A stretch of DNA of 64,000 nt from a virus: positions 14,128-78,127 of IMG/VR virus record IMGVR_UViG_3300021399_000006, one strand, 5' to 3'. Of the stretch, positions 2,096 through 28,960 are shown one piece after another. The position numbers and the translations under genes were made by a program. Position 1 is the stretch's first letter; each line of letters begins with the position of its first letter. The notes under the pieces were generated by a model. It saw only the letters and a list, made by a program, of their open reading frames with translations. It made no database searches and was not told the origin of the DNA.

Positions 2096-2100
2096 TTTTG

Positions 2101-2550
2101 TTACCATTGCCAATCTATTTGACCATAAGGGTAATATGGCATTCCTTCTTCTGTTCGCCATCGGCCTTTTCGTTTAATTTGCCGAAGATGAAGTTTTGTA
2201 TTATATCTTTGAGTTTTATGAGTCCCAGTGATATAAATATAACGAATTGAGCCATTTCTATGGCGAATGTCTAAATAGTGGCTATCCTTTCTTTGCATTT
2301 TACCGTTGTGTTTAAAATAATAGAATTTACCATTAATTACTTTAATACAGTCTTTTGCGAGTTCTCCACGTTTGTGAAGTGCGGATGTAGATTGATAGCG
2401 GTAATACCAGTCGCCTCCAGATTTAAAAAGACCATATTTATTTGATGCCTTTGCATTAACTTTTAAAGCAAAAATTATACATATAAAACCTATTATTAAT
2501 AGACTAATCAAGGTCATTAATATAAATTTAGTTTCTTTTGAATCTTTCAT
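2101..2550 (-). CDS. Membrane-anchored protein with putative cell-wall-binding repeats (GDWYY / NGKFYYFKHNGKM), lysis-associated. Standard code.
   Basis: Track ORF, 149 aa, N-terminal hydrophobic helix. Confidence 0.5.
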   Translation of the reverse strand: MKDSKETKFILMTLISLLIIGFICIIFALKVNAKASNKYGLFKSGGDWYYRYQSTSALHKRGELAKDCIKVINGKFYYFKHNGKMQRKDSHYLDIRHRNGSIRYIYITGTHKTQRYNTKLHLRQIKRKGRWRTEEGMPYYPYGQIDWQW

Positions 2551-2593
2551 TTTATATTCTCCTTTATGATATTATAAAAAAAGACATATCAAA

Positions 2594-2905
2594 TTAAGGA
2601 AAGATGTCCTTACTTTCTTTCCAAAATTTTTCATATTCTTTTCGTTCAATAGAGGCATTTTGTTTACGAATAAAATCTATCCGTCTAGAATGTATTTTTT
2701 CAATAGCGGGCATTAAATAATTTTCATCTATAATTTTGGGGTCAGAACGAGAGAAAATTTCTTTAGGAATAGACACTTCTTCTGTAATTCTGCCTTTTGA
2801 TATAGGTGAAAAATCTGTTAATTTAATGTGAATATTTCCGTCAGAGAATAAATTAAATTCCATACTAAGATTTTGGCTAAGATATTTAAATAAAATGGTA
2901 TTCAT
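2594..2905 (-). CDS. hypothetical protein
   Basis: Track ORF of 103 aa, co-directional with neighbours. Confidence 0.45.
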   Translation of the reverse strand: MNTILFKYLSQNLSMEFNLFSDGNIHIKLTDFSPISKGRITEEVSIPKEIFSRSDPKIIDENYLMPAIEKIHSRRIDFIRKQNASIERKEYEKFWKESKDIFP

Positions 2906-2920
2906 TTTAATCCTTTCTTT

Positions 2921-3415
2921 TTACCAGTTCTGAGTTACTGTAAGATGACCACCGCATTTACATCTATATCTGTTAGGATACTTTACAACATTACCTGCTC
3001 TATGATAACGACCAACAATTTCTCCGCAAGAGGAACAAGTAACAATGTATTTATATGTGTCAGGGGTATAAGCGGCAACCTTGGTCTGTGTTGTATCAAA
3101 TGTACAATCAATACGTTTGCACATTTCTTTAAAGACTTTATCGTGTCCATGATTTTCATGGGTTTCTACGATAACGAGATAGTGCGCGCATTCGTGTTTG
3201 ATTACATCATCTATTGTTGCGGGGTCTCCTACTTCGAGAAGTTTGTAGCTAAACTCCATACTTTCGGGGGTAGTGTATCCACTGCAAGAGAAGAAAAGGA
3301 CTCTACCAAGTGTTCTGGTAAGTCTTTTGTTAATTTTTACAGGGATTGTAAAATCATAACCTGCGGATTTACAAATTTCTGTACAACGAGCGGTAAGGTC
3401 CTTTTCTGTCATCAT
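2921..3415 (-). CDS. SprT-like zinc metalloprotease (HECAHY) with C-terminal Cys4 zinc ribbon
   Basis: Track ORF of 164 aa. HExxH motif plus CSSCG...CKCGG. Confidence 0.6.
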   Translation of the reverse strand: MMTEKDLTARCTEICKSAGYDFTIPVKINKRLTRTLGRVLFFSCSGYTTPESMEFSYKLLEVGDPATIDDVIKHECAHYLVIVETHENHGHDKVFKEMCKRIDCTFDTTQTKVAAYTPDTYKYIVTCSSCGEIVGRYHRAGNVVKYPNRYRCKCGGHLTVTQNW

Positions 3416-3521
3416 AATGATTTTTCCTTTCTTATTTTTTTCTTTTGATAATTATATTATATCAAAATTTTTTAATAAAATAAACAGGTTGCTCAATAAA
3501 GAACAGCCTGTTGAAAGGGAA

Positions 3522-4070
3522 TTATTCGTTAATAACTTCAATGCAACAAGATTTCATTACTTCAAGAGCAGCTTTATGATTTTCGGGGGTGGTTCCCGCA
3601 CAGCAAGATGCATCTACAATAATTTGAGTTTCAGGAAACAATGCTCTAAGAATAAGAACATTAGAAATAACGCAAATGTCTGTACATACTCCTGCTATTT
3701 CAATAGTAGTAGGTGGAAATCTTTTATAAGATATATCGGGGTCTATAAAAAATGTTTTCCAATTAAAATAACCAAAAGTTCCTTTTTCTATTGTTTTGCC
3801 AGCAAAAGGAAAGAGTTCATCAACAATGCACCATCCTGGAGTGCCTTTAATACAGTGGAGTGGAACTTTATTCATTTCAATTTTTTCTACTGGATTATCC
3901 CAATTCCATAAATAATGACTATCTTGCGTAAAAATAATTCTATCTGTCGATTGATTATATTCTTCTTTAATTTTAGCTTTTATTTTAGGTACAATTGCGC
4001 GGGCTTCAGGTGTTCCGAGAGGGCCAGTTACAAAATCATTCTGCATATCAATTACAATAAGTGCTTTCAT
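3522..4070 (-). CDS. Isochorismatase-family cysteine hydrolase (nicotinamidase-like)
   Basis: Track ORF of 182 aa. MKALIVIDMQNDF and GVCTDICV catalytic-Cys motif. Confidence 0.7.
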   Translation of the reverse strand: MKALIVIDMQNDFVTGPLGTPEARAIVPKIKAKIKEEYNQSTDRIIFTQDSHYLWNWDNPVEKIEMNKVPLHCIKGTPGWCIVDELFPFAGKTIEKGTFGYFNWKTFFIDPDISYKRFPPTTIEIAGVCTDICVISNVLILRALFPETQIIVDASCCAGTTPENHKAALEVMKSCCIEVINE

Positions 4071-4086
4071 TTAAATTCCTTTCTTA

Positions 4087-4977
4087 TTACATTATTTGAA
4101 CGATATTATCATATAGAAGATGGTGCTGTCCGCCAGGGAATACTTTATTGTTATGATAATGTCCAAAAAACCAATGTTTAAATGTTACTTTATCTTCTAT
4201 CTCTTGTAGAAATTTATTAATTGGAGCTTTATCATACCAATCATAACCCATAAAAGTCTGTATAGAAGAAGAGCAGTCGTGAGTAAAGATATAATCTACT
4301 TTATAATTGACTTTTTTAAGGTCATTCCAAACCTTTTCTTCTATTTCTTTTGTAGGTTCTTCTTGTTCCCACCATGAAACTCCTTTTACCCGAAACATTA
4401 GATGAGAAAAGCGTTTTTTATTATAGGCTTTTTTAAATTCATCATTGTTATTAAAATCTGCGGGATTAAGGATACCATCTGAAATATCGTGACTTGGTGC
4501 TCCATTATAAACAAGGATTTTTTTGTTATCAATAGTAAAGATACCAGATTCAAGAACTAAAACTGAAGGGCGGAGGACCCTTACGAAACCGCCATTCCAT
4601 TCTTTTTGAGGGTATCCTTTTTTAAACTTTTCTTTTTCTTCGGGGGGCATTTTTTCAAAAAGCCAACTATTTAGAAGTTTTTCGTCTTTAATACCCATTA
4701 TCCTGTCATAATTTTCATGATTACCAAGAACAACAAGAGTAGTAAAAGACTTGGATTCAAGCCAATCTAATGCCCATTTTTCCGCGGGCGACTCCTTAAA
4801 TGCGGAAAGGTCTGTATCCCAAATCCCGCCAAAATCTCCGCATATGATGACATAATCTTCTTTTGTTAATTCTTTTTGAATAGGAAAATTAGATGTATTG
4901 AACCGAGGAATAAAGCCATCTGTGGTTGAATGTCCAATCCGTGCGCCATGAGTGTCGCCTGTTACAAAAATTGACAT
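4087..4977 (-). CDS. Calcineurin-like metallophosphoesterase
   Basis: Track ORF of 296 aa. GDTHG, GDFGG and GNHE motifs. Confidence 0.7.
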   Translation of the reverse strand: MSIFVTGDTHGARIGHSTTDGFIPRFNTSNFPIQKELTKEDYVIICGDFGGIWDTDLSAFKESPAEKWALDWLESKSFTTLVVLGNHENYDRIMGIKDEKLLNSWLFEKMPPEEKEKFKKGYPQKEWNGGFVRVLRPSVLVLESGIFTIDNKKILVYNGAPSHDISDGILNPADFNNNDEFKKAYNKKRFSHLMFRVKGVSWWEQEEPTKEIEEKVWNDLKKVNYKVDYIFTHDCSSSIQTFMGYDWYDKAPINKFLQEIEDKVTFKHWFFGHYHNNKVFPGGQHHLLYDNIVQIM

Positions 4978-4993
4978 ATCTACTCCTTTCTTG

Positions 4994-5032
4994 CGGGGAT
5001 TAGGTTATGTTAGGACTGAAGGTGCTTCCCGC
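4994..5032 (-). ncRNA. Conserved intercistronic/5'-UTR stem-loop (copy 1) immediately upstream of the RBS of the 4087..4977 gene
   Basis: GCGGG..(28-nt loop CACCUUCAGUCCUAACAUAACCUA)..CCCCGC. Near-identical copy at 5504-5542. Confidence 0.4.
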
Positions 5033-5033
5033 A

Positions 5034-5486
5034 TTAATTATCAAACCAATAAAGAATATATACATCAGAAGGGTAATAATATTCATATCCAGCAAATTTA
5101 ATATAATATTCTATTTGTTCGATAAAAAATTTAATGGGGTTAGTTGTTTCAACTATTTCATCACCGCAGTTATCATAATCAGTAATAGTAGGATTACACA
5201 TTAAATAATTTTTTAAATCTGCAAAATTAACTTCTTTAAAATTGAAATACCCCATGGTATTTTGTATTTCTTGAATTTCTTTAGCAAAAGAAGGCTCAAG
5301 AAAAGTAGTGTGTAATTGATTCCAGGGAATATCATTTTCTAAAAGTTCAAATAATTCGTGATTACGTATATTATAAGGATTAATAGAAACGTATTTATCT
5401 TTTTTCTTGTTAAAAATTTCTATTTTATCGTAATATCCTGTTTCAGTATTTCTTATAGCAATAGCTGTGTGAATATCTTTTCCCAT
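5034..5486 (-). CDS. hypothetical protein
   Basis: Track ORF of 150 aa. Confidence 0.5.
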   Translation of the reverse strand: MGKDIHTAIAIRNTETGYYDKIEIFNKKKDKYVSINPYNIRNHELFELLENDIPWNQLHTTFLEPSFAKEIQEIQNTMGYFNFKEVNFADLKNYLMCNPTITDYDNCGDEIVETTNPIKFFIEQIEYYIKFAGYEYYYPSDVYILYWFDN

Positions 5487-6045: not shown

Positions 6046-6237
6046 ATTATTATATAGGATAAAAATAGGGGGTAGTAGTATGACAATAGTATGTGATTGT
6101 ACAGCTTGTCCTTATAACAGAAGCCGCTTTTGTAGAAATAGATTAGTTAAAATTACTAAATAGGGTTTTTGTAAAAGATTAAGTATGCGGAATTGGCGGG
6201 AGCCAGTTTAGGAAAAGTTTATGGAGGGTTATAGAAA

Positions 6238-6708
6238 GTGTTAGTAGGAATCACAGGACACAGACCAGAAAGATTAGGACCTAATTGGCCTGTAGTAGAA
6301 AGATGGATAGCAGGAAAGTTAGAAGAATATAAAGCAAGAGGAGAAAGAGTCAGTTTAATTACTGGAATGGCGCGAGGTGTTGACCAGATTGCGGCAACCA
6401 CTGCTATTGATGAAGGGGTAGGTGTAAGATGTTATTTCCCTTTCCCGCGCAAGTTTAGTAATTTAGAAGATTATGTTATATTAAATGCGGAAGTCACTAG
6501 ATTCGAGCAGAATTCATATACTCCCGATGTGTACTTAAGGAGGGACCGCCGCATTGTTGATGATTGTGATGTGTTGTTAGTTGTATGGGATGGTGTTAAA
6601 AGCGGGGGTACTTATTATACTTATAAGTATGCTCTTGCAAAGGGTAAGAAGGTTGAAGTTTTTAATATACCTGCGCAAGGTACGGATTTAAATAGGAGAC
6701 CTATATGA
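6238..6708 (+). CDS. SLOG-superfamily (DprA/LOG/YpsA-like) Rossmann-fold protein. GTG start.
   Basis: Track ORF of 156 aa. GITGHRP and GMARGVD motifs. Confidence 0.55.
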   Translation: MLVGITGHRPERLGPNWPVVERWIAGKLEEYKARGERVSLITGMARGVDQIAATTAIDEGVGVRCYFPFPRKFSNLEDYVILNAEVTRFEQNSYTPDVYLRRDRRIVDDCDVLLVVWDGVKSGGTYYTYKYALAKGKKVEVFNIPAQGTDLNRRPI

Positions 6709-6742
6709 TGTAGATTCAATCTGGAAAAGGAGGGGCTGCCGC

Positions 6743-6994
6743 ATGATTGTTGGAGTTTGGTTTAAAGATAGGGATTGGTGTGAAAAATGGTTTGCAGATT
6801 TTTTAAGTAAGATTAATTATGATGCAGTAGATAAGGTTATTAGGTCTAAGGTGTATCCGCCTGTAGTAGTAATGAAGAATCATAATTATATTAAAGGTAT
6901 TCCCGCAACAGATAATTCCCGGGGGCATAGGATGGATGTGGCTTATTTAGAACCAGGAATAAGAGATTCAGATATTTTTGATTATGTAATTTAG
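6743..6994 (+). CDS. hypothetical protein (may extend about 33 codons to TGA ~7094 if the terminal TAG is read through)
   Basis: Track ORF of 83 aa. Confidence 0.4.
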   Translation: MIVGVWFKDRDWCEKWFADFLSKINYDAVDKVIRSKVYPPVVVMKNHNYIKGIPATDNSRGHRMDVAYLEPGIRDSDIFDYVI

Positions 6995-7187
6995 CCTACT
7001 GTTGTTACTTTTGATTTTAGAGATAACAGATATAAAAAAGGGGAGATTTATGAAGGTCTTTATGGGGGGTAGGTTAAATTGGACTAGGTTCCTTGAAATT
7101 GGGGGTAGAGTAATGAGTGATTAAGGTGCGGATCCCGCACAGGGGAACCTTTTTGCATTTTTTGCTTATGAAATTTGTTTGATTGAT

Positions 7188-7255
7188 GTAAAAATGCTAT
7201 CCCAAAATTCACCTTCTATTATTATAATATGTGAATTTTCGGATAGCATTTTTAC
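7188..7255. promoter_or_regulatory. 25-bp inverted repeat (one mismatch) flanking an 18-bp spacer that contains TATAAT. Candidate operator/promoter upstream of the 7353 gene.
   Basis: gtaaaaatgctatcccaaaattcac / gtgaattttcggatagcatttttac. Confidence 0.5.
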
Positions 7256-7352
7256 TTAAAATATTATTTTTAAGGTCAAAAATAGAAAAGTGAAATGAAA
7301 TAAAAGTTATATAAATATGGAAGTATTAATTTTATATAAGGAGGAAAAAGAA

Positions 7353-8030
7353 ATGTTAGAATTAAATGTTCCATATACATCAAAAGATCTTGCTTAGCAA
7401 TTATTTAAAGTAAGTCCTAAGACTTTTACAAGTCAAAAGAAAAAGTATTTAGAGTATTTAAAATAGTTTTATGATTTTGATACTCAAGGAAGGAAAATTA
7501 TATTAAGAAGAGAATTAAAACCATTTGAGACAAGAATGGCAAATAGAAAACAAACAGTGGAGAGGAATACTTCTACTTATAGAGATATAACACATAAGAT
7601 TATAAGTTATAAGCCTTTAAATAGTGGTGCTAATATTGCAAGAGAGATATATGATAATCCATTAAAACCACCATTTAATCATGAAGAAAGTACTATTGCA
7701 AAATATGTTAGAGGAATTTTAAAGGAGGATTTTGAAATTATGGATAAACAATGGTGTAGAATTAATTATGATACAAATACTTATTAGCCTTTGAGTTTTG
7801 AAGAGAAGTGTTTTTTGATAGAGTTGTTTAAGGAAAGTGATTTAAGCAAGAAGATTATGGATATTACTGCTGATTTTAAGTGTGGAAATATTTCGAGAAA
7901 AGAGTTCCAAGAGCAGGTTGGTTTTGTTGCTTAGAGTAAGTATAATAGAGTGATGGATGCTTTTAAAGGAAAATTTGGTTTTAGACCTTATAAAGTTCCT
8001 AATTGGCGGGAGAAGCAAGGAGTAATGTGA
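7353..8030 (+). CDS. Hypothetical protein of 225 aa that requires TAG read-through (4 in-frame TAG) within the otherwise standard-code early region
   Basis: Strong RBS AAGGAGGA 8 nt before ATG 7353. 678-nt frame without TAA/TGA. Contains track ORF 7536..7787. Ends TGA overlapping the next ATG. Confidence 0.5.
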
Positions 8031-8374
8031 TGGAAGAAGAATTATTTTTAATGGAAAGAAATTATATTGATAAGAATTTTGTTTTGGTGAGAGATGGTGA
8101 GGACTTTTGTATACTTTTTGGAGATAAGGTGTATACAAAAATGGTGAATTGTAAAGATGTAAGTGAAGATTTTATAAAATATTATTATGAAAGTTTAAAA
8201 GAGATAGTGTTGGATGATGGTATCCAGATTTTTGATAGTGAGCCAGATGTGGAAGATATGAGAGAATTGGTTGATGAATGGGTGAGAGAAGAATTGTGGG
8301 ATTGGCGGAAGGAAGTTAAGGAATATAAAGGACATGATGATTTGCTTATGGCTTTAAGTGTGAAAGAAAGTTAA
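8030..8374 (+). CDS. hypothetical acidic protein
   Basis: Track ORF 8003..8374. ATG 8030 has RBS AAGGAG. Confidence 0.5.
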   Translation: MEEELFLMERNYIDKNFVLVRDGEDFCILFGDKVYTKMVNCKDVSEDFIKYYYESLKEIVLDDGIQIFDSEPDVEDMRELVDEWVREELWDWRKEVKEYKGHDDLLMALSVKES

Positions 8375-8581: not shown

Positions 8582-8612
8582 AACGAGGCTCCCAACGGGA
8601 GCCTTTTTTTTA
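8582..8612 (+). terminator. Rho-independent terminator ending the plus-strand early block
   Basis: GAGGCUCCC-AAC-GGGAGCC followed by U8. Confidence 0.6.
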
Positions 8613-8930
8613 TATTATATCATAATATTTTAATAAAGTCAAGTGCGGTCTCGGCGGCAAGGCCATATGCCTCGGTCTGAACCTAAGGGCCCTATGATGC
8701 GAGAAGCAGGTGAGACTGCACATAGGTCCATCTCCGCCTGACGGATTCACATAGGTGAATTCAGTTATGTGGATAGGTTCACCTTTGTGGATTGTGCAAA
8801 ATGCACAAAAATTTCGGGAATTTTGGCGAAAAATTTGTGCAATTTTTTTTGAAAAAAATATTGACATTGAGAGAATTTTGTGGTATAATCGGCGCGAACC
8901 ATGGTTCGCGCCCCGATGGTTTTAGATATG

Positions 8931-8960
8931 GATATAAAAAAACAGGCGTTACCGCCTGTT
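8931..8960 (-). terminator. Rho-independent terminator (AACAGGCG-UUAC-CGCCUGUU + U6 on minus)
   Basis: Hairpin plus A6 on plus, which is U6 on minus. Confidence 0.5.
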
Positions 8961-9099
8961 TAAATCTATTAAAGAAAAATCAAAACCCATAATGAAAGCA
9001 AGAATTGCATCTGCTATAAGAATGAGAGGCCAAAGGGGTGTAGGTTCACGAAAGTAGAAGGTAGAGACCGCACATAAAACAAAGAACCATACAACGCAT

Positions 9100-9282
9100 T
9101 TAATCATAGAAAGAAACATCTTCAATTCTCCATGCAAAAGGTTGGCGATAATAATCAAGAGTAATTGCATCACAATAGCTCCCAAAAGGACACTCATCAC
9201 ATTTGTTTATATCTTTATAGGCTTTTTTACAACCTTTTTTAATGAGTTTCATTCCTTCAATAATTTCATTTTTCCAATTCAT
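9100..9282 (-). CDS. small Cys-rich protein (CDECPFGSYC)
   Basis: Track ORF of 60 aa. RBS AGGAGAAG. Confidence 0.5.
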   Translation of the reverse strand: MNWKNEIIEGMKLIKKGCKKAYKDINKCDECPFGSYCDAITLDYYRQPFAWRIEDVSFYD

Positions 9283-9283
9283 T

Positions 9284-9472
9284 TTATTCTTCTCCTATCT
9301 CAATACGATAACAAATATCACTAATAATATTATGAAGATTAAAATTAAAAGTATCTTCAATATCTTCTAAATCAAATTCATCTTTATAACAATGAATAAG
9401 ATTTTTAAAGGCTTCACCATATCTTTCCGCCAGTTCAGGAAAAAGAGTTTTTGAAATATCTGAATTAATCAT
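9284..9472 (-). CDS. hypothetical small acidic protein
   Basis: Track ORF of 62 aa. Confidence 0.45.
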   Translation of the reverse strand: MINSDISKTLFPELAERYGEAFKNLIHCYKDEFDLEDIEDTFNFNLHNIISDICYRIEIGEE

Positions 9473-9717
9473 CTGCTTTTCTCCCTTGCAATATCGCTAA
9501 ATTTGTACCACACGCCTTCATCATTTTCATCTCCCCAAGTATGAGTTCCTTCCCAATAGTCATAAAGTTCATCATAAGGAATAAACTTTTGTGCAAACAT
9601 GATAACACCAAAAGCCTGAGCACGACAATTCTTAACCATGTCAGCAGAAGAACATTCTTTTGCATCAGCAAGTCTTTTTTCAACAAATTCTTTAACATCA
9701 TCCATTGTGATAGTCAT
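9469..9717 (-). CDS. hypothetical protein
   Basis: Track ORF of 82 aa. RBS AAGGAAA. Confidence 0.55.
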   Translation of the reverse strand: MTITMDDVKEFVEKRLADAKECSSADMVKNCRAQAFGVIMFAQKFIPYDELYDYWEGTHTWGDENDEGVWYKFSDIAREKSR

Positions 9718-10116: not shown

Positions 10117-10119
10117 AAG

Positions 10120-10559: not shown

Positions 10560-10572
10560 ATTTACCCCCTTT

Positions 10573-21539: not shown

Positions 21540-21700
21540 GGAGATTTCCACTCCTCTCTCTTGGATGGCTTTGATTGTAGCGTAAGCACTTTGGGGAACT
21601 TAATCTCCAGTTACCTCACCCCGAAACTCGGACCATCAGAGTTTAAAACCGAGCGCTTGGTAGCTAAGGAATCGAACCTTAGTAGAACCGTTCTACCTTT
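21540..21700 (-). ncRNA. ORF-free cassette slot, candidate small RNA carrying a tRNA-like T-arm (GGUUCGAUUCC)
   Basis: Bounded by standard cassette promoter/terminator motifs. No ORF of 30 aa or more even with TAG read as sense. Confidence 0.3.
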
Positions 21701-21757
21701 CCTTTGATGATTATATATTATCATATTTGTTGACTTTTGTCAACCCCTTTTTTTATT

Positions 21758-21919
21758 TTATTTTTCAAGCCATTTGTAAAAGTTCTTTTTCCAGTTCTCA
21801 ATGATTTTTACAGTGTAAAAATCATCTTTACAAATTTCTTCAACCCTTGCATCGTCCATGTGATAACCGTTCTGAATCATTTCGTTGAAGATTGCTTTCT
21901 TGATTTCGTAGTTTGTCAT
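21758..21919 (-). CDS. small protein (53 aa)
   Basis: Manual ORF, own promoter. Confidence 0.35.
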   Translation of the reverse strand: MTNYEIKKAIFNEMIQNGYHMDDARVEEICKDDFYTVKIIENWKKNFYKWLEK

Positions 21920-22012
21920 TTTGTACCACCTTTCTTTGATCGGTTTGTTTCATTTCTTGATTATATTATATCAAAGGGGTTGAGGTTTGTCAACCCCTTT
22001 TTTAAAATTTTT

Positions 22013-22168
22013 TTAATCCCAAAAACCAGACCAAACAGAAAACCCTTGTTCATTTACTATTACGTGATCGAAATAGCCATTATCATATTTTTCCATATAA
22101 TCCAGGCAGTCGGCATAAGACCCCTCAAAAACAATTAATTCATCTTCGTTGCGTTCAACTCGATACAT
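22013..22168 (-). CDS. small acidic protein (51 aa)
   Basis: Manual ORF. Confidence 0.35.
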   Translation of the reverse strand: MYRVERNEDELIVFEGSYADCLDYMEKYDNGYFDHVIVNEQGFSVWSGFWD

Positions 22169-22266
22169 TTTAAATCTCCTTTTCATTTGATTGGGTTTTG
22201 TTTTCCTTTAACTGTATTTATTATATCAAAGGACTTGGCTTTTGTCAAGCCCTTTTTTAAAATTTT

Positions 22267-22446
22267 TTAGCACTCCCACGGTCCATCAGGGAAAAATGTT
22301 ACACAATTAAGGTCGTCATCCCATCCGCAAGAAAGAACATAGTTCTGCCACTGTCCAGACATAGCATCAATTTCTTTTTCCATTTTATCCATCATGTCTG
22401 CATCAATAGTAACGACTGCATCTAAAAACCATACATAACCTTTCAT
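22267..22446 (-). CDS. small acidic protein (59 aa)
   Basis: Manual ORF. Confidence 0.35.
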   Translation of the reverse strand: MKGYVWFLDAVVTIDADMMDKMEKEIDAMSGQWQNYVLSCGWDDDLNCVTFFPDGPWEC

Positions 22447-23022
22447 TTTATACCACCTTTCTTTTGTGCTTTTGTTTTCCTTTGATGATTATATTATATC
22501 AAAGGGCTTGGCTTTTGTCAAGCCCTTTTTTGATTTTTTTAAAATCTTTCTTTTAAAGCAAAACCCTTTTCATTACGAATAGCAATGTAGTCATAAGGAA
22601 ATTTTTTACAGGCTTTTTCAAAAACTTTTTCCGCTTCTTTCATAGTTGCTACTTTAAAACCGTAACGGAGAAAACCTACTGTGATGTGGAACATTTTGTA
22701 CCCCTTTCTTTGGATCGATTATTGTTTTCCTTTGATGATATAAGTATATCACACTATAGAAAAAAGTCAATAGATTTTTAAATAAAATATTGTACAAAAA
22801 AAGGATTAAAATAAAATAAATAATTATGCACTTTTCCCTCTTGACAACTGGCTGTCACATGTGATATAATGTTTCGGCCTGCAGCGGCCGCTTCCGCAGG
22901 CTTTGGAAAGAATGTTAAATTATTAACAATCGATCTTCTTTTGTACGATCGATTGTTAATAATACGCTTTGTTATAATATAATAAAAGCCTTATTAGTTT
23001 TATACTAATAAGGCTTTTATTT

Positions 23023-23265
23023 TTATTTAACGTCAACACCTTGACTTTTCAAATATGCAATTCTTGAAGGAACATATTCGTTATATCTTTTTTCAAGCTG
23101 TTCTTTTGAGTATCTCATAACATAGCTTCTATCAGCTTCTTTGTAGATACCAAGTTCAACCATTCTGTTAACCATAGCTTTCTTTGTCATTTTAAACCCC
23201 TTTCTCGATCGGTTCTTTGCTTCATTTGATAAATCAATTATAACGCTAAAAGACATATCTGTCAA
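23023..23265 (-). CDS. hypothetical basic protein
   Basis: Track ORF of 80 aa. Confidence 0.45.
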   Translation of the reverse strand: MTDMSFSVIIDLSNEAKNRSRKGFKMTKKAMVNRMVELGIYKEADRSYVMRYSKEQLEKRYNEYVPSRIAYLKSQGVDVK

Positions 23266-23614
23266 TACTTTTTTTAATTTTCAGACTATTTTTTTAATTT
23301 TCAGATAACTTTAAAATCTTCGTTTTTAAAGGGTTTACTTTGATCTTTTAACGTGTTAAAGTGTGTTATTTTTTTAACAAACAATAGCATTTTAGGAATG
23401 AAAAAATTTTTTAAAATTTTTTCATTTTTCCTCTTGACAAACTGGTTCTATGTGTGGTATAATTGTTCGGCCTGCAACGGCCGCTGGTGCTGACTAACAC
23501 AATAGAGTTTGTTTGTTAATTAACAAACAAACTCTATTACTTTAACGTATTAAAGAACATTGTTAAAACCTTAACAATCAATCTACTATGTTAGATTGAT
23601 AATAGTTTAACAAT

Positions 23615-23690
<76 letters not shown>

Positions 23691-24413
23691 TTGACTTAGT
23701 TTGATTATTTATCTTATTTTGATTAGTTTGACCTAACTCAGCAAAGCCACTTTTACACATTAGCGTACTAAAGTGTTATTTTTTTAACAAGTAAAAGACT
23801 AAATCTTTAAATTTTAAAATAAGTGTTAAAAATTTAACAAGCCCGCTAATGAGCAAAAGTAAGAGTTTAGTGTGTTAAAAACTTAACAAAGGCAAGACTG
23901 TATCACTTTACCATGTTAAAGTGTTAACGTGTTACTAATGAGCAAAAGTAAGAGTTTAGTATGTTAAAAATTTAACGCTTATCAGGAAAGGTGTGAGTTT
24001 AGTGTGTTAAAAATTTAACGCTTATCAGGAAAGGTCTGACTTTTATTGATTACAGATTTATGGATTCAGAAATCTGGATACGTGTTATTGCATTAAAATT
24101 CGGCGCGCATTGGCCTGCGCGCGCCGAGCAAAACTATTAAATACAAAAAAAGACCGCCCTAAATAAAATCATACGATTTTTTAGGGCGGTCCATTCTACG
24201 CAGCGTTTATATTTAGTTTTTTGTCTCTACACAGCATTCCCAAAACTTTTCTCTCGGTATTAACGGGGGGGGTGGGTTTTTGGGAAAAAATTTTTTTGAT
24301 TTTTAAAATTGATTATGGTCTCGCCATTCCCCGTACCAAAAGTTTTTAAGTTTTCAAACAACGTACCAAAAGTTTTTAAAAATCTAAATAACGGTTCCTC
24401 GCACCAAAAATTT

Positions 24414-24890
24414 TTAAGTTTTCAAATATAATATATTATAATAATCTAAAGCATCTACTTCTTCCATAAAAAAATGAATCCCAGGAGCACATATAAACAG
24501 TCTATTATCACAAAAATCTTTTACAGAAACTTCTTCTCCAACCTTATAAACAAAAGTAGAGTCATATATAGAATGAGCCTCTTTCAACTCTCCAGTAAAA
24601 TTTCTTATTTCTAATACTTTAGCTTTATCACATCTACATTTCTTACTATCTAATCCGCTAGTTCTTTTTGCATCTTCAGGAATTTCTAATTTTATTAAAG
24701 CATAATGATTTGATTCATCAACAGCACATTTCCAACCTATAAAACTCCCAGTTGCGGGACAGGCTAAAGGCGGAAATGGAATTTCTGCTTCTTCTTCCTT
24801 TTTCTTAAAAAAAGGATATAAAGCGGCAGTTATACATGCACTAAAAAAAATAAAACTAACAATCACTATTATAAAACTAAGAATTTTCAT
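24414..24890 (-). CDS. secreted/membrane-anchored Cys-rich protein
   Basis: Track ORF of 158 aa. N-terminal hydrophobic segment. Confidence 0.5.
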   Translation of the reverse strand: MKILSFIIVIVSFIFFSACITAALYPFFKKKEEEAEIPFPPLACPATGSFIGWKCAVDESNHYALIKLEIPEDAKRTSGLDSKKCRCDKAKVLEIRNFTGELKEAHSIYDSTFVYKVGEEVSVKDFCDNRLFICAPGIHFFMEEVDALDYYNILYLKT

Positions 24891-24917
24891 TATTTTTTAC
24901 ACCATTACCAAAAGTTT

Positions 24918-25193
24918 TTAAAAATTAATCTTTCCCGCAGGCAAAAACCTACTCAATCTTTCTACCATCCATCCTGGGGCTTCTTCCGCATGAACCTCTT
25001 CAATTTCCATTCCAGAAGGAACTGAAATTGTTAACACCCCTTCTTTAAAGGTATAAAATAAAACAGGAGCAGGAGATGTATTTTCAATACTTTTTACAAC
25101 CATATCTCTATAATCATAAACATCTCCTGTCTCACAATCTTGAGGTCTTGGAAGAAAAAATAAAACTCTCTCTTTACTAATATAATCTTGCAA
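24918..25193 (-). CDS. hypothetical protein
   Basis: Track ORF of 91 aa. Confidence 0.45.
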   Translation of the reverse strand: MQDYISKERVLFFLPRPQDCETGDVYDYRDMVVKSIENTSPAPVLFYTFKEGVLTISVPSGMEIEEVHAEEAPGWMVERLSRFLPAGKINF

Positions 25194-26129
25194 TTATTCC
25201 TTATCCCTCATGTCAACAATAGGAGTCGCGCCACCTGTAATTTGTGGCATTGCGCCATTCCAAGTCTTATAATAAATATACTCATTATATTCATCAGTCA
25301 GCGCGCCAGAAATCACCTTAATAGCTTCAGCCTCCGCTCTAGATTCAGTCTCCCTTGCGGCGGCAGCACCTTCCGCCTTAATCTTAGCCTTTTCTGCTTC
25401 AATTGCGGCAGCTTCCTTCTCTTTTTCCGCATTAATAAGCGCAACCGCCTTATCACGTTCCGCGTTCACCTTATCGGTTTCCGCAGTCACCTTCGCTGTT
25501 TCAAGTTCCTCTTGCGCCTTAATCTTTTTCTTAATAGCCTTATCGGTATCTTCATCAGGGCGGACATCAGTCAAAGAAACGCTATCAATAATAATACCAT
25601 ATTTATCAAATCTTTTCTGCATTTCTTCAGAGATGGCGGTATTCACGGTTCCTCTCTCTTTACTAACAATTTCAATCATACCATAGCGAGGAGTAATTTC
25701 CTTTATCCAACCTTGCATATTTGGTTTAATGAAACTATCAAGAATCTCTTTACCATCCTGTCCTCTAAATCTACTAAATGTTTCAGGCAAACGATTAATA
25801 TCAAAAGTATAACCGAAAGCAACATCTACTTCGAGAGATGCGCCTTCCTTAGTGGGAACCTCAAAACTTTCATCATCTTCAGAGTCTCCACGCGAATCCT
25901 TTGACATGTATGACTGTTCTCTTGCAATAGTATATTTAGTTACAGTTTTAGTGGGTGAAAGGAATTTCCAACCTTGCGTCAATACCTTCTCTTCAAGGCC
26001 ACCATTCATATTATAAACAATACCTGCGTAACCTGCGGGAATCTTGGTCGAAAATAATATAAAACCAAAGACTATCAATACCAAAACAACACCAATAGCA
26101 ACTCCGCCAACTTTTCCATTTTTTCTCAT
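25194..26129 (-). CDS. SPFH/band-7 (stomatin/prohibitin/HflK-C-like) membrane protein with Ala/Glu/Lys-rich coiled-coil tail
   Basis: Track ORF of 311 aa. N-terminal TM helix, SPFH core, EAEKAKIKAEGAAAARE repeats. Confidence 0.65.
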   Translation of the reverse strand: MRKNGKVGGVAIGVVLVLIVFGFILFSTKIPAGYAGIVYNMNGGLEEKVLTQGWKFLSPTKTVTKYTIAREQSYMSKDSRGDSEDDESFEVPTKEGASLEVDVAFGYTFDINRLPETFSRFRGQDGKEILDSFIKPNMQGWIKEITPRYGMIEIVSKERGTVNTAISEEMQKRFDKYGIIIDSVSLTDVRPDEDTDKAIKKKIKAQEELETAKVTAETDKVNAERDKAVALINAEKEKEAAAIEAEKAKIKAEGAAAARETESRAEAEAIKVISGALTDEYNEYIYYKTWNGAMPQITGGATPIVDMRDKE

Positions 26130-26137
26130 AAAATTTT

Positions 26138-26293
26138 TTACTCCTCTTCTTCTTTATTTAAACTTCTTTCTATATCTTCCTTCATATCATTTATAACGCT
26201 GCCAATAAAAGGGAAGAAAATATTAAGCGCACACCATAATAGAAATGCGCAAATAATAACGATAACTATAAATAATGGGTTTAATACTGCCAT
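26138..26293 (-). CDS. small membrane protein (51 aa)
   Basis: Manual ORF. RBS GGAG. Confidence 0.35.
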   Translation of the reverse strand: MAVLNPLFIVIVIICAFLLWCALNIFFPFIGSVINDMKEDIERSLNKEEEE

Positions 26294-26481
26294 TTTATCT
26301 TACTCCTTTCTTTATATTTTTATAGCTTGAGCTATTGATATAACCATTATAATTATAAAAATTATAATATTATATATACACATATCATCATCATAATCTT
26401 CATAATTAAAAATAGAAGTTCTTTCTATAATATTAAAAAATATAGACATCATACACATTCCCGCAATAAAGGCATTCCAAT

Positions 26482-26631
26482 TCATTTAACCTTTTCTCCA
26501 TAAATTTCTTCTATAATACGGTCATCAATCCTTTTCATAGTTGCCATGCCCTCTTTGTAGCCAAGAAAGAAGCCGAAGGCGAAAATAATCACTATACAGA
26601 TAAAATAAATAATTCCTAATATAATATCCAT
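26482..26631 (-). CDS. small membrane protein (49 aa)
   Basis: Manual ORF. Confidence 0.35.
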   Translation of the reverse strand: MDIILGIIYFICIVIIFAFGFFLGYKEGMATMKRIDDRIIEEIYGEKVK

Positions 26632-26942
26632 CCTGCTCACTCCTCTTTATCAAATGCTGAAAAATCACCATTCAGAAGATGCTCTATAATAGTATATTCA
26701 TTATTTGTGAGATATATCTTGCCCTGTCGCTCAAGACGAAAAATTAACTTTGCAAAAAATATGATTGCGTTCTTTATTGCCTTGTTATCCACGCTCTCAC
26801 TCCTCTCATTTTTTATGTTTTGCAAAATCCTCTAATGCCATAAAGAATAACCATATCGGGAACATAAATATAGCAACCAATATAAAGGTTTCTACAATAA
26901 AAAGAACCACAACAAAGATTGTATATAATATTTGCAGTATAC

Positions 26943-27266
26943 TCATGTTTCTTTTCTTTTCCCTTCACTGCAAAAATCATCGTGATTTACTTTTTTCACT
27001 CCGCTTGTAAGGTTGCACCACCATCTACCAGATTCCGCGTCGAATAAATGGTAATTGCAATCCTTACACCTGACCACAGGTACAACATCAGCAGGTGACA
27101 TCTGCTCAACCACTATTGCCATTGCTCTTGCTCCTTGCGCATATGGAATACCGCCATTTTGTTCTAAATCATCCGCATTTGCGTTTATTTCATTGACCAC
27201 ATCTTGCTTGCGGATATATTTATCTGTCATCCTCTGCCTCCTCAAACTCATCACAGTCATCCTCAT
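26943..27266 (-). CDS. Cys-rich hypothetical protein
   Basis: Track ORF of 107 aa. Confidence 0.45.
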   Translation of the reverse strand: MRMTVMSLRRQRMTDKYIRKQDVVNEINANADDLEQNGGIPYAQGARAMAIVVEQMSPADVVPVVRCKDCNYHLFDAESGRWWCNLTSGVKKVNHDDFCSEGKRKET

Positions 27267-27394
27267 CTAAATCTTTTTGGCACCCATCCACAAACCACTG
27301 TCTCTTGCGTGTGCTGTAATAGGTATCATATCCCCATATTGCATATTTGCATTTTGTACAGTCAGGCATTAGAGTCCTCCGCTCTCTTTTTTCA

Positions 27395-27670
27395 TCATCT
27401 ACTTTCAATAATCGTTACTGTACCTTCAAACACTCCCCATTCCGTATCAGCTTTGAATGTATGTGTTTCCGGCTTTTCATCGTCACGCATCGGTCTTGTC
27501 AGATACCACAGAGCAGAATCATCTTTCCATGTGATTTCTTCTAACTTCTGTCCTTTGGGTAATTCTAAGGTCATACTTCCACCGTAATTTCTAGTAGCTG
27601 CATGACAGCCAGTTAACATAGCTATTATCATTAATATTACAATACTCTTTTTAATCATCTTATTTCTCAC
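27395..27670 (-). CDS. lipoprotein (signal peptide + LTGC lipobox)
   Basis: Track ORF of 91 aa. Confidence 0.55.
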   Translation of the reverse strand: MRNKMIKKSIVILMIIAMLTGCHAATRNYGGSMTLELPKGQKLEEITWKDDSALWYLTRPMRDDEKPETHTFKADTEWGVFEGTVTIIESR

Positions 27671-27694
27671 CTCTTATAAGAACTTCTTTATCAA

Positions 27695-27967
27695 TCATGC
27701 TTTATCCTCTATATAAGGTTCAGGAAGCGGCATCCATGCAACGATACATTTAGTATTATAAACATCTTTTCCAATTGCCCAGCCTGGAGTATCACGATAA
27801 ATACCATCTGAAGATAATAATTTTTCACAATATGTTGCCGTTTCAACTATATACCACTTTTCTCCATTTGGATAATAGCTTTTTCTTGTTACGAGTATAG
27901 GATCAGACCATAATTCATAATCTGTTTCTGGTAATCTTTCCTTTACTGGAATCCATTCATAATTCAT
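27695..27967 (-). CDS. hypothetical protein
   Basis: Track ORF of 90 aa. Confidence 0.45.
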   Translation of the reverse strand: MNYEWIPVKERLPETDYELWSDPILVTRKSYYPNGEKWYIVETATYCEKLLSSDGIYRDTPGWAIGKDVYNTKCIVAWMPLPEPYIEDKA

Positions 27968-28236
27968 ACTTCTTCCTCCTCAAAATACTTATTCCACCAT
28001 TTAATAGCCTTTTTCAAACTATTAAAGCGGTGTTCCTCTAAATCTCTATATTCATCTTCAAGGCATTCACCGATATTAATTTGATACCATGCATTATCAC
28101 GGGCGGGTTCCGCACAGAAACTCAAATTAATTTCCATATCTTTTCCTTCTCTTGTAAATTCCTCAAAAGAAAGAAGAATTTCTCTAACTCCAAGTTCACT
28201 AAAATCTTCAACTGTCAATTTTTTCATTTTATTCAC
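27964..28236 (-). CDS. hypothetical acidic protein
   Basis: Track ORF of 90 aa. Confidence 0.45.
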   Translation of the reverse strand: MNKMKKLTVEDFSELGVREILLSFEEFTREGKDMEINLSFCAEPARDNAWYQINIGECLEDEYRDLEEHRFNSLKKAIKWWNKYFEEEEV

Positions 28237-28819
28237 CTATATCAGTTATTAAATGTTTTCCTGCTTCCATGTTTGACTTATCAAGGCGGATTACTTGGTT
28301 TGCAGTAATATCACCAGTTACATCACCAAAAATTACAACAACAGATTTTCCTCCATTGGCGGAAATGTCTCCCGTATGATTACCGTAAATAACAACATTA
28401 TCACCAGTTATATCACCTACTCTATCATTATTTACTTTAATTGTAGTAGATTTTTTATCGGAATCCTCTTCAGCATTTCCCCATATTTTCCACCACATAG
28501 ATTCAGGTGGAGGGGTAGACCCGTTCAGTCTACCAGCGTCGCATACATAAATAAGACCTTTATATTTTACTTTATCATATTTAGTATAAAGTGTATCTTC
28601 CTTCCATTCTTCTACTATTTCTTCTGCATTTCTTGTTAATTGCTTCCAAGCAGATTTATAAATAGGAATAATAGAATTTTGAGGATGAAGAGACATAAAA
28701 ATATCTCCATTAAATTCAACGAGGTCTCCTTCTGCATATGTTTTAAAAGAATTATAAGAATCTACAGGAATACCATGCCATGTCAATATATAATCGTTAC
28801 AATCGTTACATTTAATCAT
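28229..28819 (-). CDS. hypothetical protein with bactofilin-like beta-helix repeats (GDITGD.VVIYG..TGDI)
   Basis: Track ORF of 196 aa. First gene of the leftward early transcript. Confidence 0.45.
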   Translation of the reverse strand: MIKCNDCNDYILTWHGIPVDSYNSFKTYAEGDLVEFNGDIFMSLHPQNSIIPIYKSAWKQLTRNAEEIVEEWKEDTLYTKYDKVKYKGLIYVCDAGRLNGSTPPPESMWWKIWGNAEEDSDKKSTTIKVNNDRVGDITGDNVVIYGNHTGDISANGGKSVVVIFGDVTGDITANQVIRLDKSNMEAGKHLITDIGE

Positions 28820-28834
28820 TTTTCTTCCTTTCTC

Positions 28835-28960
28835 TTGTCTTTCATTTTCTAAAAATATTATATCAAAAAAAATTCAAAAAAACAAGTCAATTTGCTATTT
28901 AAGCTACTTTGACTTGTACAAAAAATTTTGATATACTAAAAATATAAGGTCAAGAAAGGA
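28835..28960. promoter_or_regulatory. Divergent promoter pair at the early/late boundary: a leftward one (TTGACT-18-TGATATAAT) and a rightward one (TTGACT-17-TATACT) for the late operon
   Basis: Hexamers read on both strands. Confidence 0.55.

What the first reader, a model, noticed from the sequence alone, without database searches (positions are those of the whole stretch)
2100..28960. Genome partitioned by code usage: standard-code early block against TAG-recoded late blocks, and the most abundant structural genes avoid TAG
Between ~2.1 and 28.8 kb the genes (mostly minus strand) are clean standard-code ORFs. From the divergent promoter at ~28.9 kb onward, and on the minus strand at both window ends (1-2095 and 61.6-64 kb), genes need TAG read-through. 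The candidate major capsid (37556-38659) and major tail (42839-43906) genes contain no TAG, even though they sit inside the recoded block. This is the pattern expected if TAG suppression works as a lysis/late-timing switch. The best-known recoded gut phages read TAG as Gln, which supports that reading. The lysin and glycoside hydrolase genes, which are lethal if expressed early, are heavily recoded.
Basis: partly seen in the sequence, partly recalled or inferred. Interest (0 to 1): 0.6.

Follow-up and report, generated by a model that had tools for sequence, protein, structure and literature searches.

The report
Phage reads TAG as glutamate

Summary
The split by TAG use is real but not as clean as described. 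Genes at 28972-61546 (+) and the minus-strand genes at both window ends need TAG read-through: 248 in-frame TAGs. The minus-strand ORFs of the 2.1-28.8 kb block have no TAG at all, either inside them or as their stop codon. That block is only about half coding. It also holds a plus-strand island (6080-8030) with three ORFs that contain TAG.

The candidate capsid and tail-tube genes have no TAG. This holds across 25 relatives: capsid 2 TAG among 686 Glu-type codons, terminase 294 among 901.

The reading as TAG=Gln fails. TAG sites align with Glu in standard-code relatives (52 of 103, against 5 Gln) and in the cultured Enterococcus phage EF1. TAG exchanges with GAA/GAG among close relatives. The same test gives Gln for the published phage phAss-1, which serves as a control.

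Close relatives carry a tRNA(CUA) inside a cluster of 26-28 tRNA genes. Contigs identical to the window show the start of that cluster a few kb beyond its left end. This tRNA has a Firmicutes-type tRNA-Glu body.

Stop-codon recoding in only part of a phage genome is already known. TAG=Glu with a suppressor tRNA derived from tRNA-Glu appears to be a new variant. Public databases translate these proteins with Gln at the TAG sites.

The parts
2..1327 (-). Lysin-like gene, cut by the window edge (580 aa in relatives). It has CW_7 repeats and a metallo-beta-lactamase / Apyc1-like domain. 8 in-frame TAG.
   Evidence: TAG share of Glu-type codons is 0.33.
1340..2161 (-). Glycoside hydrolase family 114 gene. 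The likely start is at 2095 or 2107. 8 in-frame TAG, the highest TAG share in the window (0.57).
2101..5486 (-). TAG-free accessory genes: a protein with choline-binding repeats, SprT-like, isochorismatase/nicotinamidase-like, metallophosphatase, and two unknowns. All end in TAA.
6080..8374 (+). Plus-strand island with strong positive GC skew. ORFs 6080-6358 (9 TAG, acidic tail), 6743-7096 (3 TAG) and 7317-8030 (4 TAG) need TAG read-through. The SLOG/DprA-like ORF 6238/6367-6708 and ORF 8003-8374 are TAG-free.
   Evidence: Gene callers report the same ORFs in identical contigs.
8600..28819 (-). TAG-free block of mostly small ORFs at low coding density. It includes an exonuclease-like 231-aa ORF, a HAD-like ORF, DUF5758, an SPFH/Band 7 protein and a CBM5/12 protein. 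No ORF uses TAG either as a sense codon or as its stop. The stretch 17.9-24.4 kb is poor in ORFs.
15159..15232 (-). tRNA-Lys(UUU), the only tRNA gene in the window. It is not a suppressor.
28820..28971 (.). Intergenic region between the divergent blocks. It holds sigma-70-like matches: on the + strand TTGACT-17-TATACT with an extended -10 TG (28909-28937), and on the - strand TTGACC-17-CAAAAT (28953-28925).
   Evidence: These are consensus matches only and are not enriched over shuffled sequence.
28972..30084 (+). Sigma-factor-like gene (phrog_5767) with a C-terminal zinc-ribbon/HNH-like region. It is the first gene of the rightward block. 10 TAG, the first at codon 13.
30086..31696 (+). Two YonG_N-family genes (134 and 400 aa) with 1 and 16 TAG.
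31693..33432 (+). Terminase large subunit, 21 TAG (TAG share 0.43).
33869..35566 (+). Portal protein, 11 TAG.
35578..36924 (+). YonD_N-family acidic protein, scaffold-like. 6 TAG among 62 Glu-type codons, a depletion (P = 0.002).
37556..38659 (+). Candidate major capsid protein. 0 TAG against 25 GAA/GAG. Across 25 relatives, 2 TAG among 686 Glu-type codons.
   Evidence: The fold check was inconclusive: pLDDT 55, and the best PDB matches are capsid proteins at E = 0.08.
42839..43906 (+). Candidate tail tube protein (phrog_2729, virion structural protein). It lies upstream of two chaperone-position genes and the tape measure gene. 0 TAG against 15 GAA/GAG. Across 12 relatives, 5 TAG among 188 Glu-type codons.
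45861..54803 (+). Tape measure protein, 2980 aa, 71 TAG.
   Evidence: Its size matches the 3149-aa tape measure protein of phAss-1.
54929..61546 (+). Distal tail protein (1519 aa, 20 TAG) and a tail fibre with a Peptidase_S74 chaperone domain (605 aa, 5 TAG).
61590..64000 (-). DNA-metabolism genes that contain TAG: RuvC-like (5 TAG), dUTPase (3), three small ORFs (3, 3 and 1), and NrdG, which is cut by the window end.

Best explanation
The window is about 45% of a roughly 140-kb SPbeta-like siphovirus from the rumen. It is a relative of phAss-1 and of Enterococcus phage EF1.

Shown:
- TAG is a sense codon for glutamate. It supplies about a quarter of the Glu codons in one class of genes: sigma-like factor, terminase, portal, most tail genes, lysis-type genes and several nucleotide-metabolism genes.
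- A second class carries no TAG at all, neither inside the gene nor as its stop. Those genes read the same with or without suppression. This class holds the leftward accessory block and the candidate capsid and tail-tube genes. In a relative it also holds the replicative polymerase and an ATPase.

Shown in close relatives, inferred for this genome:
- The decoder is a phage tRNA(CUA) with a Firmicutes-type tRNA-Glu body. It lies in a cluster of 26-28 tRNA genes. In contigs identical to the window, that cluster starts about 4 kb beyond window position 1, on the same strand as the TAG-free block and downstream of the lysis-type genes.

Inferred:
- The host's GluRS charges this tRNA with Glu. GatCAB does not amidate it, because it lacks U1-A72 and has the longer tRNA-Glu-type D loop.
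- After infection the TAG-free genes and the tRNAs are expressed under the host's standard code. Once the suppressor has built up, the TAG-containing genes can be translated. Their first TAG lies at about codon 20 (median). They include a sigma-like factor and the lysis-type genes.
- Suppression is costly or incomplete. Selection therefore keeps TAG out of the virion proteins needed in the most copies.
For: TAG is a sense codon:
- Coverage by ORFs of at least 100 aa rises from 27% to 77%.
- Gene lengths then match those of the standard-code relative L027.

TAG = Glu:
- Against standard-code L027, 52 of 103 TAG sites align with E and 5 with Q. Log-likelihoods: E -203.8, D -251.5, Q -276.5.
- Against cultured phage EF1, E is again best: -341.3, against Q -367.6.
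- Eight other genomes of the clade give E. The controls phAss-1 and L028/L029 give Q.
- Among close relatives, TAG aligns with GAA 35%, TAG 28%, GAT 9%, GAG 6% and CAA 3.6%. In the reverse direction, GAA and GAG are the codons most often replaced by TAG.
- In dUTPase, TAG falls at GSxDAA and YRGxIKV. Solved dUTPases have E at the first site in 2 of the 5 best matches, and at the second in 3 of 5 (T in the other two).
- With TAG = Glu each gene has an ordinary Glu and Gln content.

The decoder:
- tRNA(CUA) at L074 16860-16936 is identical in L075 and L079. L079 comes from a 133-kb contig of the Glu clade.
- Its 36-nt core also occurs in a 143-kb contig whose capsid protein is 92% identical to the window's.
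- Infernal aligns it as a canonical tRNA.
- Its best database matches are annotated tRNA-Glu. The phAss-1 suppressor used as a control matches tRNA-Gln and tRNA-Trp.
- It shares the anticodon stem, the D loop, a 4-nt variable loop and A73 with the tRNA-Glu(UUC) carried in the Lactobacillus johnsonii prophage Lj928 record.
- U11-A24, the absence of residue 47, U35 and A37 are GluRS determinants. U1-A72 and a short D loop are what GatCAB requires.

The split:
-.
- The ORFs around the suppressor in L074 are TAG-free.
Against: - The suppressor was not recovered from a contig 100% identical to the window. Those loci end at tRNA-Met, about 5 kb short of where it sits in relatives.
- C34 and A36 replace U34 and C36, which are strong GluRS determinants in E. 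coli. Charging by GluRS is therefore unproven.
- No aaRS gene, release-factor gene or RF1 inhibitor was seen, so it is unknown how RF1 competition is handled.
- dUTPase, NrdD, NrdG and RuvC carry TAG. That does not fit a simple early/late divide.
- There are no expression data.
- The host is unknown. The only hint is two small contigs binned into Erysipelotrichaceae MAGs.
- The capsid identity rests on gene order and weak fold matches.
Confidence: 0.78

Rival explanations
1. Standard phage code 15: TAG is read as glutamine by a Gln-type suppressor, as in crAss-like phages, Lak phages and phAss-1.
For: - It is the only TAG reassignment reported in the phage surveys I read.
- Sister lineages of the same family do give Gln: phAss-1, and L028/L029.
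- Public pipelines translate these genes with Q.
Against: - Q is 47 to 84 log-likelihood units worse than E against L027, in the window and in all eight other clade genomes tested. It is 26 units worse for the window against EF1.
- TAG exchanges with GAA/GAG about eight times more often than with CAA/CAG.
- The suppressor has a tRNA-Glu body, G1-U72 rather than U1-A72, and no close similarity to tRNA-Gln.
Confidence: 0.04
2. There is no timing switch. TAG is simply a slightly costly synonym of GAG that drifts in wherever selection on translation is weak. The split reflects only how much of each protein is needed, and how soon.
For: - TAG share falls in step with expected copy number in the virion: capsid 0.3%, the 197-aa gene next to it 1.8%, tail tube 2.7%, scaffold-like 7%, portal 20%, terminase 33%.
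- TAGs are spread evenly along genes.
- TAG sites turn over quickly between relatives: 52 of 77 Glu columns in terminase have TAG in at least one genome.
Against: - Thirty-two accessory ORFs, which are unlikely to be highly expressed, have no TAG at all, even as a stop codon.
- A 1317-codon polymerase gene has none among 108 Glu codons.
- Genes whose untimely expression would be harmful, GH114 and the lysin-like gene, have some of the highest shares.
Confidence: 0.3
3. The TAG-free block is a hypervariable cargo region of recently acquired genes from standard-code sources. It lacks TAG because of where it came from, not because of selection.
For: - GC content is uneven, 0.26 to 0.44.
- Two GC-rich paralogues prefer GAG.
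- Relatives are rearranged at 9-11 kb, and one lacks the SPFH gene.
- A 133-kb assembly of the same phage breaks inside 15.8-23.6 kb.
Against: - Genes taken from standard-code genomes should often end in TAG. None of the 32 does.
- Conserved core genes (polymerase, capsid, tail tube) are TAG-free as well.
Confidence: 0.15
4. Recoding serves mainly as a lock. In a lysogen, or after capture by other elements, the TAG-laden structural and lysis genes cannot be expressed without the phage's own tRNA.
For: - SPbeta-like phages are temperate (my own knowledge).
- Prophages with recoded late genes and TAG-free integrases have been described.
- The first TAG comes early in nearly every recoded gene.
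Against: - No integrase or repressor was seen in the window or in the flanks I fetched.
- No integrated copy was found. The genome-collection hits are small binned contigs.
Confidence: 0.15

Closest known systems
TAG-to-Gln (code 15) recoded gut phages: crAss-like, Lak, Garnet/Topaz/Amethyst clades, phAss-1
   Same: - In-frame TAG in structural and lysis genes.
- A subset of genes that is compatible with the standard code.
- A phage-encoded tRNA(CUA).
- No phage aaRS seen.
- Most likely a host that uses the standard code.
- phAss-1 belongs to the same SPbeta/EF1-like family: its capsid protein is 52% identical and it shares gene order.
   Different: - The amino acid is Glu, not Gln.
- The suppressor derives from tRNA-Glu, not from a Gln-type tRNA.
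- The survey preprint states that only TAG to Gln and TGA to Trp were seen in phages whose code differs from the host's.
Peritrich ciliate nuclear code (NCBI table 30: TAA and TAG to Glu); my own knowledge
   Same: TAG is read as glutamate.
   Different: - That code is eukaryotic and applies to the whole genome, and it reassigns TAA as well.
- Here TAA is the main stop codon: 41 of the 59 complete genes tabulated.
- Here the reassignment covers only part of a viral genome.
Genomes with blocks of different code use, as handled by MgCod and prodigal-gv
   Same: Stretches of genes that need TAG read-through sit beside stretches that do not.
   Different: - Those tools assume Gln for TAG.
- Here the split goes gene by gene. 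TAG-free capsid and tail-tube genes lie inside the recoded block, and TAG-containing ORFs lie inside the TAG-free block.
Bacillus phage SPbeta and Enterococcus phage EF1 (standard-code relatives)
   Same: - Structural module with YonG_N and YonD_N families, a very long tape measure protein, and a genome of about 135-145 kb.
   Different: - These phages show no in-frame TAG. EF1 served as the standard-code reference.

Membership tests
Stop-codon-recoded phage (partial use of an alternative code) | In-frame stop codons in conserved phage genes; reading them through restores full-length proteins. | tested here: met
   Terminase, portal and tape measure protein reach the lengths of their standard-code homologues only with TAG read through.
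Stop-codon-recoded phage (partial use of an alternative code) | Coding density rises sharply under one alternative code only. | tested here: met
   Coverage by ORFs of at least 100 aa: 27% under the standard code, 77% with TAG read through, 33% with TGA read through. TAA read-through gives 55%, but from overlapping spurious ORFs.
Stop-codon-recoded phage (partial use of an alternative code) | The phage genome carries the matching suppressor tRNA. | tested here: inconclusive
   There is none in the window. tRNA(CUA) is present in close relatives L074, L075 and L079 and in a contig with a 92%-identical capsid protein. The loci identical to the window stop about 5 kb short of its expected position.
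Stop-codon-recoded phage (partial use of an alternative code) | The host uses the standard code. | not testable with these tools
   The host is unknown. The only hint is two small contigs binned in Erysipelotrichaceae MAGs.
Genetic code 15 (TAG = Gln) | TAG positions align with Gln in homologues from standard-code genomes. | tested here: not met
   E 52, Q 5 of 103 sites against L027. E is also best against EF1. The control phAss-1 gives Q.
Genetic code 15 (TAG = Gln) | The suppressor tRNA is of Gln type (U1-A72, tRNA-Gln body). | tested here: not met
   G1-U72, U11-A24, a 4-nt variable loop and a tRNA-Glu-type D loop. The best matches are annotated tRNA-Glu.
TAG = Glu reassignment (as in NCBI table 30) | TAG is read as Glu. 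| tested here: met
   This is sequence inference; no protein data.
TAG = Glu reassignment (as in NCBI table 30) | TAA is also read as Glu. | tested here: not met
   TAA ends 41 of the 59 complete genes tabulated.
Lysis/late-timing switch by suppression (Borges et al. model) | Early genes and the code-change machinery are free of the recoded stop; lysis genes are enriched in it. | tested here: met
   The accessory block and the ORFs around the tRNA cluster are TAG-free. GH114 (0.57) and the lysin-like gene (0.33) are at or above the mean TAG share of 0.245.
Lysis/late-timing switch by suppression (Borges et al. model) | TAG-containing genes are translated later than TAG-free genes. | not testable with these tools
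   This needs a cultured host and time-resolved RNA-seq, Ribo-seq or proteomics.

The most novel reading that the evidence does not exclude
A third kind of natural stop-codon reassignment exists in phages: TAG read as glutamate. It is carried out by a phage tRNA-Glu whose anticodon became CUA. It arose within the same SPbeta-like family that also contains TAG=Gln lineages and standard-code lineages. It is common in rumen metagenomes. Every current pipeline translates it wrongly as glutamine.
Probability: 0.6. Interest if true: 0.8.

Novelty: new variant of a known kind. Interest (0 to 1): 0.72.

Why it matters
Consequences if TAG = Glu holds:
- The survey I read saw only TAG=Gln and TGA=Trp in phages whose code differs from the host's. 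It argued that the host's GlnRS and TrpRS are the enzymes phages can exploit. A tRNA-Glu-derived amber suppressor would add GluRS to that list.
- Related lineages would exist with three states: standard code, TAG=Gln and TAG=Glu. That makes the evolutionary path of a code change directly comparable within one phage family.
- About 2% of all residues, and a quarter of the glutamates, in the recoded genes of a very abundant rumen phage group are wrong in public protein sets. More than 7,000 terminase and more than 7,000 capsid homologues are on record. A neutral Gln stands where an acidic Glu belongs, which affects structure prediction and family models.
- Proteomic checks could miss the error, because Glu at a predicted Gln looks exactly like deamidation.

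Separately, the roughly 100-fold depletion of TAG in the capsid gene compared with the terminase gene is a measurable sign that suppression is costly.

Tried and rejected
- Other reassignments for the ORF-poor stretch 20.5-25.5 kb: reading through TGA, TAA or both produced no long ORFs.
- Hidden tRNAs or other known RNAs in the middle block: Rfam at gathering and at permissive thresholds, plus a custom scan for CUA anticodon loops, found only tRNA-Lys.
- Suppressor next to NrdD, where phAss-1 has it: no tRNA there in 17 close relatives.
- Exact-match searches in IMG/VR for the window's left end and for a tRNA-Met 37-mer found nothing.
- A broad test with database terminase homologues failed as an independent test. 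Those proteins had been translated with TAG = Q, so the TAG columns show only an E/Q split. This is informative about annotation but is not a standard-code reference.
- Pfam gave nothing for most structural genes.
- The AlphaFold model of the capsid candidate was poor (pLDDT 55). The Foldseek matches to capsid proteins are only suggestive.
- Stop-codon context: the base after sense TAG is C somewhat more often (15% against 8%, p = 0.005). The shift is too weak to build on.
- Literature searches for TAG read as Glu in phages found nothing. The library does not hold subscription-only papers.

Full report
**What the window is**

The window has 32% G+C. Its capsid candidate, terminase and portal match Enterococcus phages EF1/VRE9, SPbeta-like Staphylococcus phages and the human-gut phage phAss-1. 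Pfam families on record for its neighbours are YonG_N and YonD_N, named after Bacillus phage SPbeta.

phAss-1 is published as a TAG-recoded phage with three tRNA(CUA) genes, read as TAG = Gln (PMC10607447). Contigs identical to parts of the window come from rumen-type assemblies of 125-145 kb. The window is therefore a little under half of a genome of about 140 kb.

**Checking the observation**

With ORFs of at least 100 aa, 27% of the window is covered under the standard code. Coverage is 77% if TAG is read through and 33% for TGA.

From 28972 to 61546 the plus strand is one near-continuous array of genes. Together with the minus-strand genes at 2-2161 and 61590-63546, it carries 248 in-frame TAGs in 11,920 codons. 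These genes include a sigma-like factor, two YonG-like genes, terminase, portal, a scaffold-like gene, tail genes, a 2980-aa tape measure protein and a tail fibre. With TAG read through, their lengths match the orthologues in a standard-code relative. The first TAG usually comes within the first 20 codons.

In the 2.1-28.8 kb block, the 28 minus-strand ORFs that I accept have no TAG against 302 GAA/GAG codons. No accepted ORF of the block ends in TAG: 21 end in TAA and 11 in TGA. These genes read the same in either code.

The block is not as clean as described:
- A plus-strand island at 6080-8374, with strong positive GC skew, holds three ORFs with 9, 3 and 4 TAGs. Gene callers report the same ORFs in identical contigs.
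- Only about half of the block lies in credible ORFs.
- The stretch 17.9-24.4 kb has only very small ORFs, a microsatellite and a tandem repeat.

Just outside the window, in a relative whose NrdD protein is 90% identical, a 1317-codon DNA polymerase III alpha-like gene and a 394-aa ATPase gene are TAG-free, while a neighbouring 184-aa gene has 11 TAGs. The split is by gene, not simply by block.

**Which amino acid TAG encodes**

IMG/VR yielded 29 loci around capsid homologues. Two of them (L026, L027) have no in-frame TAG and serve as standard-code references.

I translated TAG as X and aligned the window's proteins to L027.
- The 103 TAG sites face E 52 times, D 10, K 8 and Q 5.
- A likelihood test used the observed substitution profile of each amino acid in the same alignments. 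It gives E -203.8, D -251.5 and Q -276.5.
- Eight other genomes of the clade also give E. phAss-1 gives Q, as published, and a third lineage (L028/L029) gives Q. So the test can tell the two apart.
- With the cultured Enterococcus phage EF1 as reference, the window again gives E and L028 gives Q.

Among 23 close relatives, the codons aligned to the window's TAGs are GAA 35%, TAG 28%, GAT 9%, GAG 6% and CAA 3.6%. In the other direction, GAA and GAG are the codons most often replaced by TAG.

In dUTPase, TAG falls at GSxDAA and YRGxIKV. At the first site the two best solved dUTPases have E. At the second, three of the five best have E and the other two have T.

With TAG = Glu, every recoded gene has an ordinary Glu and Gln content. 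In ORF 6080-6358 the nine TAGs lie mostly in an acidic tail.

**The decoder**

The window has one tRNA gene, tRNA-Lys(UUU), and no CUA anticodon loop in a tRNA context.

Contigs identical to the window show that a tRNA cluster begins about 4 kb beyond position 1. It is on the same strand as the TAG-free block and downstream of the lysis-type genes. Those loci stop at tRNA-Met.

Close relatives with the same gene order carry 26-28 tRNA genes there, including one tRNA(CUA). It is identical in L074, L075 and L079; L079 is from a 133-kb contig of the Glu clade. Its core is also present in a 143-kb contig whose capsid protein is 92% identical to the window's.

Infernal aligns it as a normal 73-nt tRNA:

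GGCUCGG UG GUCA AACGGUUUA AGAC G CUGGU CUCUAAA ACCAG AAAU CGGAG UUCGAUU CUCCG GCGGGCU A

Its best matches among annotated phage records are tRNA-Glu genes (Lactobacillus prophage Lj928, Enterococcus phiSHEF13, a Streptomyces phage). The phAss-1 suppressor, run as a control, matches tRNA-Gln and tRNA-Trp.

Aligned with the tRNA-Glu(UUC) carried in the L. johnsonii prophage Lj928 record, it has the same anticodon stem, the same GGUUUAAGAC D loop and stem, a 4-nt variable loop and A73. The anticodon loop differs at four positions, three of which turn the anticodon UUC into CUA.

The identity rules in the literature are as follows.
[quoted passage not shown] The tRNA has all of these.
- U34 and C36 are also GluRS determinants. 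The tRNA has lost both (PMC9976931).
- Bacterial GatCAB needs U1-A72 and rejects the extra D-loop base of tRNA-Glu (PMC2811023). The tRNA has G1-U72 and the long D loop.

My inference is that it is charged with Glu by the host's GluRS and is not converted to Gln. No aminoacylation data exist.

**Why some genes avoid TAG**

TAG supplies 24.5% of Glu-type codons in the recoded genes.

Across up to 25 genomes of the clade, the TAG share is:

| Gene | TAG / Glu-type codons | Share |
|---|---|---|
| Capsid candidate | 2/686 | 0.3% |
| 197-aa gene before it | 4/226 | 1.8% |
| Tail tube candidate | 5/188 | 2.7% |
| Gene after the capsid gene | 19/447 | 4.3% |
| Scaffold-like gene | 109/1547 | 7% |
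| Portal | 183/901 | 20% |
| Terminase | 294/901 | 33% |

In terminase, 52 of 77 Glu columns have TAG in at least one genome. In the capsid gene, 2 of 50 do. TAG therefore comes and goes freely in most genes but is removed from the proteins made in the largest numbers.

This fits a cost of suppression. It does not fit a timing switch, since these are late genes.

The complete absence of TAG from 32 accessory ORFs, even as a stop codon, and from the polymerase gene fits the published idea that genes translated before the suppressor is available must be readable in the host's code. The high TAG share in GH114 and in the lysin-like gene fits that idea too, as does the presence of TAG in the sigma-like gene that heads the rightward block (first TAG at codon 13).

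The order of events is inference. The promoter-like matches at 28.9 kb are not better than chance.

**Identity of the two TAG-free structural genes**

The tail tube call rests on three things: phrog_2729 (virion structural protein, E = 2e-51), its position before the chaperone-position genes and the tape measure gene, and weak sequence matches to solved tail tube proteins.

The capsid call rests on gene order, size and a large homologue family. An AlphaFold model was poor (pLDDT 55); its best PDB matches were capsid proteins at E = 0.08. I treat both as candidates.

**Comparison with what is known**

Partial stop-codon recoding in phages, with standard-code early genes and recoded structural and lysis genes, is established. 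That part of the finding is a new member of a known kind.

The reassignment to Glu is not in the papers I could read. The survey preprint says only TAG = Gln and TGA = Trp were seen in phages whose code differs from the host's. NCBI taxonomy has only a 'code 15 clade' for such phages. Four literature searches found nothing. The library lacks subscription-only papers, so I cannot exclude a prior report.

Database proteins of this clade carry Q at the TAG columns, which gives a pure E/Q split there.

**Host**

The only hint is two small contigs binned into rumen Erysipelotrichaceae MAGs.

**Verdict**

Noticed in passing
L069 16671-16742 (also L068, L070-L072); about 4 kb left of window position 1: A tRNA-like gene with an 8-nt anticodon loop. 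ARAGORN reports a four-base anticodon UUUG and labels it Lys|Gln. It could be a frameshift-suppressor-type tRNA or an odd tRNA-Gln.
   Followed up: no
window 15159-15232 (-): A lone tRNA-Lys(UUU) sits in the middle of the TAG-free block, far from the main cluster of 26-28 tRNAs, which already has a tRNA-Lys(UUU).
   Followed up: partly
window 15319-15723 (-) and 17488-17853 (-): Two paralogous ORFs, both starting MANVMTYA. They lie in a stretch with 40-44% G+C and one prefers GAG over GAA, unlike the rest of the genome. This suggests recent acquisition.
   Followed up: no
window 24414-26153 (-): Three consecutive ORFs (DUF5758, a 91-aa ORF, and SPFH/Band 7) lie in the same reading frame and are separated only by TAA stops. 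One relative lacks the SPFH gene.
   Followed up: partly
window 17900-24400: An ORF-poor stretch with (ATT)23 at 23616-23685 and a 43-bp tandem repeat at 23952-24043. A 132,990-bp assembly of the same phage has its two ends at about window 15.8 and 23.6 kb, so this region may vary between strains or be hard to assemble.
   Followed up: partly
window 2-1327 (-); full length in L068 11224-12966: The 'lysin' has CW_7 wall-binding repeats plus a metallo-beta-lactamase domain, which on record also hits the anti-Pycsar Apyc1 family. No recognised muramidase or amidase domain was found, so its role may not be (only) lysis.
   Followed up: partly
P0047-P0166 (terminase homologues in the public protein collection): Proteins of this clade were predicted with TAG translated as Q. 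Columns where the window has TAG therefore show almost only E or Q.
   Followed up: yes
L035 4414-8367 and 8360-8914 (relative, beyond the right end of the window): There is an extreme contrast between neighbouring genes: a DNA polymerase III alpha-like gene with 0 TAG in 1317 codons sits next to a 184-aa kinase-like gene with 11 TAG.
   Followed up: partly
L028/L029 and L064 (more distant relatives in IMG/VR): A third lineage of the family seems to read TAG as Gln. One more distant relative carries a 90-nt tRNA(CUA) that resembles a phAss-1 suppressor with a long insert. The family thus holds standard-code, TAG=Gln and TAG=Glu lineages.
   Followed up: partly
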